From Escherichia phage 212, in the sequence record PQ765507: DNA of 64,000 nucleotides. One strand, given 5' to 3'. Of this stretch, positions 24,181-24,378 are shown piece after piece. Positions within the stretch are counted from its first letter, which is position 1, and every line of letters starts with the position of its first letter. Made by a program: the position numbers and the translations under genes. Below the pieces are notes generated by a model. That model was given only the letters and a program-made list of their open reading frames with translations, searched no databases and was not told the DNA's origin.

Positions 24181-24378
24181 CTATATAAGGCCGATTAATG
24201 CTAGTGAAACATCTACAACTGATTCGAGCGCGACGACTGGCAATATAACACCATGTGCCAATGCAATAGGGGCAACAATGAAATTCCAGAGTAGAACAAA
24301 ACAGAGTATCGAAAGGACCAGAATCGTTCGCTTACGACTGCCTTTGATGGCTTGAATTAGACTAGATAGTTTGAGCAT
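24181..24378 (-). CDS. small membrane protein (65 aa, two predicted TM helices), antisense to the early gene block
   Basis: Reverse-strand ORF with AAGGAGGA RBS about 7 nt upstream of ATG. Confidence 0.45.
   Translation of the reverse strand: MLKLSSLIQAIKGSRKRTILVLSILCFVLLWNFIVAPIALAHGVILPVVALESVVDVSLALIGLI

What the first reader, a model, noticed from the sequence alone, without database searches (positions are those of the whole stretch)
24181..24378. Antisense small membrane-protein gene between 61 and 56
A 65-aa reverse-strand ORF with two predicted TM helices and a near-consensus AAGGAGGA RBS sits alone in an otherwise + strand early block, at the position where I recall dam in T4. Upstream on the - strand is a CATAAATA box (one mismatch to the late consensus). 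The size and topology are compatible with a holin/antiholin-like or toxin-like membrane peptide, or a membrane-acting exclusion factor.
Basis: partly seen in the sequence, partly recalled or inferred. Interest (0 to 1): 0.45.

Follow-up and report, generated by a model that had tools for sequence, protein, structure and literature searches.

The report
Small holin-related late membrane gene
The reverse-strand 65-codon ORF is a real, conserved gene of T4-like phages, missing from the T4 reference annotation, that encodes a small membrane protein distantly related to the rear half of a known family of phage lysis proteins (holins); its function has never been tested.

Summary
The ORF at 24181-24378 (-), its AAGGAGGA ribosome-binding site and its CATAAATA box are all present as described. 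The window is a Gaprivervirus (T4-like, 99% identical to phage P896).

The ORF is a real gene:
- It matches PHROG 2024 (function unknown) over its full length.
- It is found in over 700 T-even phage genomes, always convergent with primase gene 61. In T4 it lies in the unannotated dam/61 gap.
- dN/dS is about 0.1-0.6.

An NATAAATA late-promoter box precedes the first gene of the cassette in nearly every lineage, and is exactly TATAAATA in several. Non-T variants of this box are about 8-fold depleted in the window.

The family has two paralog types. The 108-nt "spacer" after the ORF is a deletion remnant of the second type.

Profile-profile comparison links the family to the last two hydrophobic segments of PF11351 "holin of 3TMs" (hhalign 93.8%, E 1.8e-7; 200 shuffles reached at most 21.9 against 42.8). 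The N-terminal half and the charged tail are missing.

The phage has its own T holin at 48960-49607. The best reading is therefore a late, holin-derived accessory membrane protein, possibly a lysis-timing modulator. Function is untested.

The parts
24181..24378 (-). CDS of the type-A member of the phrog_2024 family (65 aa plus stop): MLKLSSLIQAIKGSRKRTILVLSILCFVLLWNFIVAPIALAHGVILPVVALESVVDVSLALIGLI
   Evidence: ORF list. phrog_2024 match 1-65/65, E 1.9e-26. Annotated as a hypothetical protein in P896, VR7 and others. dN/dS 0.18-0.72 within the genus, and codon-position differences of 104/36/138.
24382..24389 (-). Shine-Dalgarno sequence AAGGAGGA, 3 nt before the ATG
   Evidence: Sequence. GGAGG is kept in front of the first gene of the cassette in all lineages inspected.
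24395..24402 (-). T4 late-promoter-like box CATAAATA (consensus TATAAATA, mismatch at -13), 16 nt before the ATG
   Evidence: One of only two VATAAATA sites in the window, against about 16 expected. An NATAAATA box sits 15-22 nt before the ATG in Tequatro-, Mosig-, Dhaka-, Kanagawa- and Marfavirus, and is perfect TATAAATA in several. Position -13 is the most variable position in T4 late promoters (PMC2988020).
24069..24194 (-). Remnant of a second (type-B) paralog. It is the C-terminal two-thirds only (…WNLLVVPIAATQGVHLPQVTIEHIHSIIGYFTGIPS), with no usable start codon. Its stop overlaps the primase stop by 4 nt.
   Evidence: Six-frame motif scan. Family HMM hit at E 2.3e-16. The alignment with the intact 66-aa gene of VR25/VR26 shows a 97-bp deletion.
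24173..24180 (-). GTGGAACT, the single surviving copy of the 8-bp direct repeat at which the 97-bp deletion in the type-B gene occurred
   Evidence: Alignment A4: VR25/VR26 carry both copies, flanking the deleted segment.
24398..24424 (+). Middle-promoter-like site for gene 56 on the other strand: MotA box TTATGCTTTA (24398-24407), 11 nt, then the extended -10 TGATATAAT (24416-24424). The MotA box overlaps the late box by 5 bp.
   Evidence: Read from the sequence. It fits the consensus wwwTGCTTtA placed 12±1 bp from TAtaaT, with TGn in about half of promoters (PMC2988021). Inference only; no transcript data.
24128..24151 (+). Terminator-like hairpin on the early strand after gene 61 (GGGGTAAGTGCACCCC then TTGTGTTG), lying inside the type-B remnant
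   Evidence: Consensus scan. Weak: a 5-bp stem.
23044..24072 (+). Context: primase gene 61, convergent with the cassette
   Evidence: phrog_47 at E 5e-94. Annotation of P896 and VR7.
24463..24981 (+). Context: dCTPase gene 56, divergent from the ORF
   Evidence: phrog_173 at E 3e-44 and dUTPase_2. Annotation.

Best explanation
The ORF is a genuine gene for a 65-aa inner-membrane protein of a small family (PHROG 2024). The family is confined almost entirely to T-even-type phages and sits on the 'late' strand between primase gene 61 and gene 56, or dam in T4.

Shown here:
- The gene is under purifying selection.
- It is syntenic across at least seven genera.
- It comes in two paralog types, which duplicate and decay.
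- Its family is a remote homolog of the last two hydrophobic segments of the PF11351 'holin of 3TMs' family.

Inferred:
- Late in infection, gp55-loaded RNA polymerase starts about 6 nt downstream of the CATAAATA box. The resulting mRNA has an 11-nt leader carrying a strong Shine-Dalgarno sequence.
- The protein inserts with its basic N-terminal helix (+5 charge) in the cytoplasm. One long helix spans the membrane (residues 18-41, with near-invariant W31-N32 and P37). A short G43-x3-P47-x4-E52 hydrophobic tail follows, equivalent to the third holin segment.
- The protein lacks the holin's N-terminal half and its charged C-terminal tail, and the phage has its own T holin. It therefore most likely acts as an accessory that oligomerises in the membrane and modulates envelope events late in infection. 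Lysis timing or lysis inhibition is the leading candidate. It is unlikely to be the lysis trigger itself.
For: Gene is real:
- phrog_2024 matches full length at E 1.9e-26.
- 707 phage records carry it, 688 of them with at least 80% coverage.
- dN/dS is 0.12-0.72, with third-position changes far more frequent than second-position changes.
- The type-A copy is intact in all seven Gaprivervirus loci examined, while the neighbouring type-B copy decays in five different ways.

Synteny: the gene is convergent with gene 61 in T4, RB69, Moon, Q7622, WG01, KLB31, F48 and metagenome contigs.

Late expression:
- The NATAAATA box is conserved before the first gene only.
- VATAAATA occurs twice against about 16 expected, Poisson P 1.7e-5.
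- On the ORF's strand, the window's three other full-consensus TATAAATA boxes each lie 18-30 nt before an ORF start, one of them holin t.
- -13 variants are accepted in T4 late promoters.

Holin relationship:
- hhalign of family against PF11351 members gives 93.8%, E 1.8e-7, score 42.8.
- Reversed profiles score 9.5-10, and 200 column shuffles reach at most 21.9.
- Four subsets and the single protein all align in the same register.
- hmmscan gives independent weak hits to PF11351 and to holin phrog_3427.
- The six holins used are true PF11351 members, E at most 6.6e-22, and several sit next to endolysin genes.
- PF11351 includes the tested ICP1 holin TeaA, which takes part in lysis inhibition (PMC7182436).

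Topology: one strong TM segment and a +5 N-terminus. AlphaFold pLDDT is 77, with helix 15-41, a loop, then helix 51-61.
Against: - No transcript, protein or phenotype data exist for any family member; no paper in the searches run mentions it.
- The window protein has no Pfam hit. The best family member scores 15.3 bits against a PF11351 cut-off of 24.8.
- The window protein alone reaches only 36% hhalign probability.
- The gene is not next to an endolysin or spanin gene.
- There is no charged C-terminal tail.
- The rapid gain and loss of paralogs looks more like an accessory or arms-race gene than a core lysis component.
- The late box has a C at -13, and its activity is unmeasured.
- The box overlaps a MotA-box-like site that could explain part of its conservation in phages without dam.
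Confidence: 0.6

Rival explanations
1. It is an accessory membrane factor unrelated to lysis. It could be a late-acting superinfection-exclusion or anti-defence protein that blocks or senses something at the inner membrane or periplasm. In that case the holin ancestry is only history.
For: - The family shows fast turnover: type A only, B only, A-B, B-A and other types, with repeated pseudogenisation of one copy. This is typical of arms-race genes.
- Nearby genes include spackle and AdfA (61.2), which are exclusion and anti-defence genes.
- Copies also sit at prophage ends in Leclercia, in moron-like positions.
Against: - Known T4 exclusion genes (imm, sp) are early genes on the other strand, whereas this gene has a late-type box.
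- PADLOC gave no hit, although PADLOC holds host defence systems rather than phage counter-defences.
- There is no positive evidence for any target.
Confidence: 0.25
2. The main product is the RNA. A late transcript from the CATAAATA box runs antisense into the 3' end of primase gene 61 and shuts down early or middle messages. It may also interfere with the overlapping middle promoter of gene 56. On this reading the peptide is secondary.
For: - The cassette always abuts or overlaps the 3' end of gene 61, by 4-24 nt.
- No convincing terminator follows the ORF on its own strand in the window, T4 or RB69.
- The late box overlaps a MotA-box-like site.
- Both strands are transcribed at several T4 sites.
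Against: - Clear protein-level selection: dN/dS is well below 1, and the motifs W-N-F, P, G, L-P and E/D persist at 25-50% identity.
- The strong Shine-Dalgarno sequence is conserved.
- Family members keep the protein in unrelated contexts with no primase nearby.
- Rfam finds nothing.
- An antisense effect could still be an add-on.
Confidence: 0.08
3. It is a second true holin or pinholin that can by itself depolarise or permeabilise the membrane and trigger lysis.
For: - Homology to a holin family.
- Size and two hydrophobic segments resemble class II holins (own knowledge).
- The labels 'Holin' and 'holin family protein' appear in UniProt for OE5505 and in GenBank for EAWsc9.
Against: - The phage carries Phage_holin_T at E 2e-66 with a perfect late box.
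- T4 t mutants do not lyse even though T4 has this ORF (established T4 genetics, own knowledge; ORF presence).
- The holin N-terminal half and charged tail are missing.
- The second hydrophobic segment is unfavourable for insertion in most members.
Confidence: 0.06
4. It is a chance ORF, or conservation is due to DNA elements only.
For: The ORF is short, hydrophobic and absent from the T4 reference annotation.
Against: - The family is found by an exhaustive profile search with conserved motifs.
- Selection statistics.
- Only this ORF and its remnant match the family HMM among 1075 window ORFs.
Confidence: 0.01

Closest known systems
PHROG 2024 (for example RB69ORF029w, RB32 ORF030w, VR7ORF033w; function unknown)
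   Same: Full-length member: E 1.9e-26, positions 1-65 of 65. All 26 diverse relatives tested fall in the same PHROG. The position and orientation next to gene 61 are the same.
   Different: Nothing differs. This is the family it belongs to. The family has no assigned function and no Pfam model, and it is not annotated in T4 RefSeq.
PF11351 GTA_holin_3TM ('holin of 3TMs'; RcGTA holin rcc00556, ICP1 TeaA, many marine podo/siphovirus holins)
   Same: Profile-profile homology over about 50 residues. The basic patch, the long TM helix with the aromatic-x-F/Y…P motif, G, (L/V)P, an acidic residue and a G-rich hydrophobic end all align to holin positions 70-128.
   Different: - It is about half the length: 65 aa against 130-150.
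- It lacks the N-terminal hydrophobic and polar-helix region, the GWRP motif and the C-terminal LRTYEK tail.
- It scores below the Pfam threshold.
- It is not in a lysis cassette.
- It coexists with a T-type holin.
T4 lysis-control proteins T (holin), RI and RIII (antiholins)
   Same: Late-type promoter, inner-membrane location predicted, and a distribution centred on T-even phages, the classical lysis-inhibition phages (own knowledge of T4 biology; for t in this window).
   Different: The family HMM gives no significant match to T or to any other window ORF. RI and RIII are not in the window and were not compared. It is far smaller than T and has no periplasmic globular domain.
PLE LidI (66-aa or 121-aa transmembrane protein of the Vibrio cholerae satellite that collapses ICP1 lysis inhibition)
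   Same: Same size class, membrane protein, made late. It acts on a lysis system whose holin (TeaA) is a PF11351 member (PMC7182436). It is a functional analogy for what a mini membrane protein can do to lysis timing.
   Different: LidI is encoded by a satellite, not by the phage.
Class II holins and pinholins (for example phage 21 S68)
   Same: About 65-70 aa, two hydrophobic segments and a basic N-terminus (own knowledge).
   Different: No homology was tested or found. There is no charged C-terminal tail. The second segment is marginal as a TM helix.

Membership tests
PHROG 2024 | Significant full-length match to the family HMM | tested here: met
   E 1.9e-26, 92.6 bits, positions 1-65 of 65.
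PHROG 2024 | Conserved genomic position (convergent with primase gene 61 in T-even-type phages) | tested here: met
PF11351 GTA_holin_3TM | Score above the Pfam gathering threshold (24.8 bits) | tested here: not met
   The window protein has no hit. The best relatives score 15.3 and 13.6 bits.
PF11351 GTA_holin_3TM | Homology detectable by profile-profile comparison | tested here: met
   hhalign 93.8%, E 1.8e-7, against the C-terminal half only. Reversal and shuffle controls are far lower, and subsets align in the same register.
PF11351 GTA_holin_3TM | Full architecture: about 120-150 aa, N-terminal hydrophobic/polar region, GWRP motif, three hydrophobic segments, charged C-terminal tail | tested here: not met
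   65 aa. Only the last two segments are present. KRKR stands in place of GWRP, and the protein ends at …IGLI.
PF11351 GTA_holin_3TM | Location in a lysis cassette next to an endolysin | tested here: not met
   The gene lies between primase and dCTPase. Reference holins lie next to peptidase, glycoside hydrolase or endolysin genes.
Holin (functional class) | Small protein with at least one TM helix | tested here: met
   Residues 18-41: Hessa sum -2.4, Kyte-Doolittle 2.6. AlphaFold helix 15-41.
Holin (functional class) | Hydrophilic, charged C-terminal domain | tested here: not met
   The C-terminus is hydrophobic (…SLALIGLI). The net charge after residue 42 is -2, and both acidic residues lie inside the hydrophobic segment.
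Holin (functional class) | Late expression | tested here: inconclusive
   A late-type box is conserved and statistically unusual, but there are no transcript data.
Holin (functional class) | Forms lethal membrane lesions and releases endolysin at a programmed time | not testable with these tools
   This needs induction or complementation assays.
T4-type late gene | TATAAATA at about -10 of the transcript start, close upstream of the gene | tested here: inconclusive
   CATAAATA has one mismatch at -13, the most variable position. Orthologs have T, A, G or C at that position. Activity is unmeasured.
Type I toxin (Hok/Ldr/TisB-like) | Family HMM match, plus a cis-antisense RNA antitoxin and toxicity | tested here: not met
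   Only one relative gave a chance-level Ldr_toxin hit, E 0.1. Rfam found no RNA. Toxicity was not tested.

The most novel reading that the evidence does not exclude
T-even phages, including T4 itself, may carry an overlooked late gene for a holin-derived two-segment membrane protein that is a working part of the lysis-timing and lysis-inhibition circuit. It could be an extra antiholin, a holin partner or a sensor of proton-motive force. On this reading, the turnover between type-A and type-B paralogs reflects conflict with hosts, satellites or competing phages.
Probability: 0.25. Interest if true: 0.75.

Novelty: new variant of a known kind. Interest (0 to 1): 0.5.

Why it matters
T4 is the reference system for holin-controlled lysis and lysis inhibition, and its gene list is usually treated as complete. 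This work points to a conserved, selected, probably late-expressed membrane-protein gene that is not in the T4 reference annotation (NC_000866.4 17738-17938, + strand). It also gives the family its first evidence-based link to a known protein family, one that includes the lysis-inhibition holin of phage ICP1. That turns a 'hypothetical protein' into a directly testable candidate for lysis or envelope control. It also shows how a holin can be cut down to a two-segment derivative. If the gene turns out to have no lysis phenotype, it remains a clean example of a fast-turning accessory cassette with overlapping middle and late promoters.

Tried and rejected
Searches and checks that gave nothing:
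- Pfam, NCBIfam and PADLOC scans of the window protein gave no usable hit.
- Foldseek against the PDB gave nothing. Foldseek against BFVD returned only family members.
- Rfam found no RNA family in 23400-25200.
- Five literature searches for the ORF, for T4 antisense or late transcripts at this site, and for unannotated T4 small proteins found nothing.
- The T4 genome review (PMC150520) is not held, so I could not check whether a late promoter is listed at this site in T4.
- tblastn with the distant members P0091 and P0086 found nothing in the phage collection.
- The third word-indexed protein search did not pull in any PF11351 protein. I therefore fished real PF11351 holins with a bait sequence written from memory. 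The bait was used only to find real sequences, which were then verified by Pfam.
- ICP1 TeaA could not be retrieved by similarity, so it was not compared directly.

Ideas rejected:
- 'It replaces dam.' T4 has both genes.
- 'It is the phage's holin.' The T holin is present.
- 'A conserved terminator explains the conservation.' The hairpins differ between genera.

The Leclercia prophage and L032 contexts did not place the gene in a recognisable lysis cassette.

Full report
**1. What is in the sequence**

The ORF at 24181..24378 on the minus strand exists: 65 codons with an ATG start. Read on its own strand, the upstream sequence is …aagCATAAATAcaagaAAGGAGGAtgtATG.
- The Shine-Dalgarno sequence AAGGAGGA is at 24382-24389.
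- The CATAAATA box is at 24395-24402, 16 nt before the ATG.

The ORF lies between primase gene 61 (23044-24072, +; phrog_47 E 5e-94) and dCTPase gene 56 (24463-24981, +). The window is a Gaprivervirus (Straboviridae, Tevenvirinae), 99.3% identical over this stretch to Escherichia phage P896. It is closely related to VR7, VR20, VR25, VR26 and SP18.

**2. It is a real gene**

*Family membership and annotation.* The protein matches PHROG 2024 (function unknown) over its whole length at E 1.9e-26. It has no Pfam, NCBIfam or PADLOC match. It is annotated as a hypothetical protein in most relatives, for example VR7ORF033w ('similar to RB32 ORF030w') and RB69ORF029w.

*Distribution.* tblastn finds it in 707 phage records, 688 of them covering at least 80% of the protein.

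*Absence from the T4 annotation.* T4 also has it. In NC_000866.4 the homolog (66 aa, 52% identical) occupies 17738-17938 on the + strand. This is the 309-bp stretch between dam and gene 61 that carries no annotated feature. It overlaps the gene 61 stop by 4 nt.

*Selection.*
- Within Gaprivervirus, pairwise dN/dS is 0.18-0.72.
- Within Tequatrovirus it is 0.12-0.61.
- Differences by codon position are 104/36/138 and 42/10/77 respectively.

*Size of the family.* An exhaustive profile search of 1.84 billion representative proteins finds only 19 clusters. All are 45-80 aa, and the full-length ones share the core: basic patch, about 13 hydrophobic residues, W-N-[FY]-h-h-h-P-h-A-A-x-x-G-h-x-L-P-x-h-x-h-[ED].

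*Specificity.* Among 1075 stop-to-stop ORFs of the window, only this ORF (E 9.5e-25) and the stretch just downstream (E 2.3e-16) match the family HMM. Rfam finds no RNA family here.

**3. Two paralog types and a decaying second copy**

The family splits into two types.
- Type A looks like MxKLxxLxxAIKGNKK…WNF…AP…AHG…P…L[DE]xVVD…IGL. The window ORF, T4 and RB69 are type A.
- Type B looks like MGxxFYQIWKL…D…WN…VVPxAATQG…LPQV…EHI…. Dhakavirus, Marfavirus and most Kanagawavirus are type B.

Moonvirus and some Kanagawavirus carry other variants.

Some genomes carry both types in tandem. The order is B-A in two Mosigvirus-like metagenome contigs. The order is A-B in VR25 and VR26.

In Gaprivervirus the type-B copy is being lost in several independent ways (alignment A4):

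| Phage | State of the type-B copy |
|---|---|
| VR25, VR26 | Intact, 66 aa |
| VR7 | +1 frameshift |
| VR20 | Codon-2 TGA plus a 2-nt deletion |
| EAWsc9 | Start codon lost plus an 86-bp deletion |
| This window, P896 | 97-bp deletion between two copies of GTGGAACT |

The 108-nt 'spacer' between the ORF and gene 61 (24073-24180) is therefore the C-terminal two-thirds of a dead paralog, whose reading frame spans 24069-24194 on the minus strand. The type-A copy is intact in every one of these genomes.

**4. Synteny**

In every T4-like genome inspected, the cassette is convergent with primase gene 61 and abuts or overlaps its 3' end. This holds for T4, RB69, Moon, Q7622, WG01, KLB31, F48, ESCO10 and several metagenome contigs. 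What lies on the other side varies: gene 56, dam, MazG-like genes or homing endonucleases.

T4 has both, in the order 61, this ORF, dam, 56. No dam is detectable in the window.

**5. Promoter evidence**

*The box is conserved.* An NATAAATA box lies 15-22 nt upstream of the ATG of the first gene of the cassette in nearly every lineage. The second gene of a tandem never has one.

| Box | Lineages |
|---|---|
| TATAAATA | Kanagawavirus Q7622 and two contigs, Marfavirus F48, contig L019 |
| CATAAATA | Gaprivervirus, L017, KLB31 |
| GATAAATA | T4 |
| AATAAATA | RB69, SA21RB, WG01 |
| TATTAAATA | Moonvirus |

*Published consensus.* According to Geiduschek and Kassavetis (PMC2988020), 32 of 50 listed T4 late promoters are perfect TATAAATA. 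Nine have A at -13, and most of the rest carry single deviations. Late transcripts run in either direction.

*The box is rare in the window.*
- TATAAATA occurs 7 times, against 5.4 expected.
- The three non-T variants together occur only twice, against 16.9 ± 4.2 expected from shuffles and 15.9 ± 3.9 from a Markov model. The minimum in 300 simulations was 6, and the Poisson P is 1.7e-5.
- Near-consensus boxes are therefore purged, and the one before this ORF is one of only two survivors.
- The three perfect boxes on the same strand lie 18-30 nt before ORF starts. One of these ORFs is holin t (48960-49607, Phage_holin_T E 2.2e-66) and the other two are unassigned ORFs of 215 and 500 aa.

*My inference.* I infer a gp55-dependent late promoter giving an mRNA with a leader of about 11 nt. 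No transcript data are available.

**6. Overlapping divergent promoters (inference from sequence)**

On the + strand, the same DNA reads TTATGCTTTA (24398-24407), then 11 nt, then TGATATAAT (24416-24424), ahead of gene 56. This fits the T4 middle-promoter consensus: wwwTGCTTtA placed 12±1 bp from TAtaaT, with TGn in about half of promoters (PMC2988021).

The C at -13 of the late box is the complement of the G of TGCTT. The two promoters therefore share 5 bp.

In T4 the neighbour is dam and no MotA box overlaps, yet the box (GATAAATA) is still there. Its conservation is therefore not just a by-product of the gene 56 promoter.

**7. The protein**

- The first 18 residues carry a net charge of +5.
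- Residues 18-41 are a clear TM helix (sum of Hessa values -2.4).
- The last 24 residues (GVILPVVALESVVDVSLALIGLI) contain two acidic residues. They are unfavourable for insertion: +5 here and +6 to +11 in relatives.
- AlphaFold with a 17-sequence alignment gives pLDDT 76.9, with helices at 2-12, 15-41 and 51-61 and a loop at 42-50.

**8. Relationship to a known holin family**

*First hints.* hmmscan of distant family members gave weak hits to PF11351 GTA_holin_3TM (E 0.03 and 0.1, profile positions 66-117 of 123). It also gave weak hits to the holin phrog_3427 (E 5e-4 and 2e-3, positions 75-127 of 141).

*Reference set.* To test this I collected six real phage holins. All are PF11351 members at E ≤ 6.6e-22. 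Several sit next to endolysin-type genes.

*Main result.* hhalign of the 26-sequence family alignment against these six gives probability 93.8%, E 1.8e-7 and score 42.8. Family columns 19-70 align to holin positions 70-128.

*Controls.*
- Reversed profiles score 9.5-10.
- 200 column shuffles of the holin C-terminal half give a mean of 10.1, sd 2.1 and maximum 21.9.

*Subsets.* All align in the same register.

| Query set | hhalign probability |
|---|---|
| 17 T-even sequences | 91% |
| Type A only | 55% |
| Type B only | 40% |
| Other members | 96% |
| Window protein alone | 36% |

*Conclusion.* The family is therefore a remote homolog of the last two hydrophobic segments of 3TM holins. It lacks their first roughly 70 residues, the GWRP motif and the LRTYEK tail. 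It is not a PF11351 member by Pfam's own threshold.

*Published functions of PF11351 members.* The family includes the RcGTA holin (rcc00556, as cited in PMC3423380). It also includes TeaA, the holin of Vibrio phage ICP1, which works with an antiholin in lysis inhibition (PMC7182436).

*Existing 'holin' labels.* The labels 'Holin' (UniProt, OE5505) and 'holin family protein' (GenBank, EAWsc9) appear on two family members. I did not trace their origin; no curated model supports them.

**9. Contexts outside T4-like phages**

A few members lie elsewhere.
- Some sit at the ends of Leclercia prophages, directly after a SegE-like GIY-YIG gene and near a lysozyme gene.
- One sits after tail-fibre-like genes and an endonuclease VII-like gene on an unassigned phage contig.

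These contexts show that the protein, not the primase neighbourhood, is what is conserved. They do not define a function.

**10. Interpretation**

Shown:
- A real, selected, syntenic gene.
- A holin-derived fold.
- Paralog turnover.

Inferred:
- Late transcription.
- Inner-membrane insertion with the N-terminus in the cytoplasm.

Most likely role, at modest confidence: an accessory membrane protein acting late, with lysis timing or lysis inhibition as the leading candidate. The protein is a truncated holin relative in phages that already use the T holin. T4 t mutants do not lyse despite having this ORF (established genetics, own knowledge).

Rivals:
- A late exclusion or anti-defence factor is favoured by the arms-race-like turnover.
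- An antisense role for the transcript is possible as an add-on, but it cannot explain the protein-level selection.
- A self-sufficient second holin is unlikely.
- A chance ORF is excluded.

**11. Novelty and score**

The ORF is already annotated as hypothetical in hundreds of genomes and clustered as PHROG 2024, so its existence is not new. What appears to be new:
- The evidence-based link to PF11351.
- The two-type paralog structure and the pseudogene in this window.
- The conserved late box and its overlap with a middle promoter.
- The point that the T4 reference annotation lacks the gene.

I rate it a new variant of a known kind, with interest 0.5.

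Noticed in passing
L004 2492-2692 (= NC_000866.4 17738-17938, + strand): The T4 reference genome has an intact 66-aa ortholog with AAAGGAGG and GATAAATA upstream, lying in the 309-bp gap between dam and gene 61. No feature is annotated there in NC_000866.4 or KJ477684.
   Followed up: yes
window 24398-24424 (+): A near-perfect T4 middle-promoter pattern lies ahead of gene 56: MotA box TTATGCTTTA, 11 nt, then TGATATAAT. Its MotA box shares 5 bp with the late-type box of the ORF on the other strand.
   Followed up: partly
whole window, both strands: Near-consensus late boxes are strongly avoided. VATAAATA occurs twice against about 16 expected, while perfect TATAAATA occurs 7 times against about 5 expected.
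   Followed up: yes
window 22820-22827 (+): A perfect TATAAATA lies on the early strand, 16 nt before the 55-aa ORF 22844-23011 (gene 61.1 position), just upstream of primase. This suggests a possible late promoter feeding 61.1/61.
   Followed up: no
window 36524-36531 (+): A perfect TATAAATA ends 1 nt before the ATG of a 62-aa ORF (36533-36721). That is too close for a normal leader, so it is either a coincidence or a start in or after the ATG.
   Followed up: no
window 53606-53613 (-): The only other non-T box (AATAAATA) lies inside the 215-aa ORF 53466-54113 (-). It is 17 nt before an in-frame internal ATG (53588) that would give a 40-aa C-terminal peptide.
   Followed up: no
window 48960-49607 (-): The canonical T holin gene (Phage_holin_T, E 2.2e-66) has a perfect TATAAATA 18 nt upstream. 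Two further minus-strand ORFs also follow TATAAATA boxes and have no Pfam match: 53466-54113 (215 aa) and 57712-59214 (500 aa).
   Followed up: partly
L004 2507-2526 (-) and L006 1497-1526 (-): In T4 and SA21RB, a terminator-like hairpin for the early strand (ATGGCATTAACAAGTGCCAT plus a T-run) lies inside the 5' end of the small ORF, coding for MALVNAI. It is not conserved in the window.
   Followed up: partly
L017 2305-2698 and L019 2285-2698: Two Mosigvirus-like metagenome contigs carry type B and type A in tandem, in the order B-A. The genes overlap or nearly touch, which suggests translational coupling, and only the first gene has a late-type box.
   Followed up: partly
L028 5567-6252; L030 6001-6216: Family members of 71-83 aa sit at the chromosome-proximal end of Leclercia prophages or prophage remnants. 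In one case the gene overlaps the stop of a SegE-like GIY-YIG gene by 4 nt and lies next to a phage lysozyme gene. This hints at transfer between T4-like and temperate phages, possibly via homing endonucleases.
   Followed up: partly
window 24981-25262 (+): A 93-aa ORF between gene 56 and soc matches phrog_5782 ('virion structural protein') over its first 51 residues (E 4e-15). It occupies the place where VR7 and T4 have the homing endonuclease segF.
   Followed up: no
L027 (Escherichia phage ESCO10) 1801-1977: The type-B gene of this Dhakavirus appears disrupted near its 5' end. The upstream sequence still reads ATGGGCAGTATTTTTTATCAAATCTGG, but in another frame. The region is unannotated in the record.
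   Followed up: no
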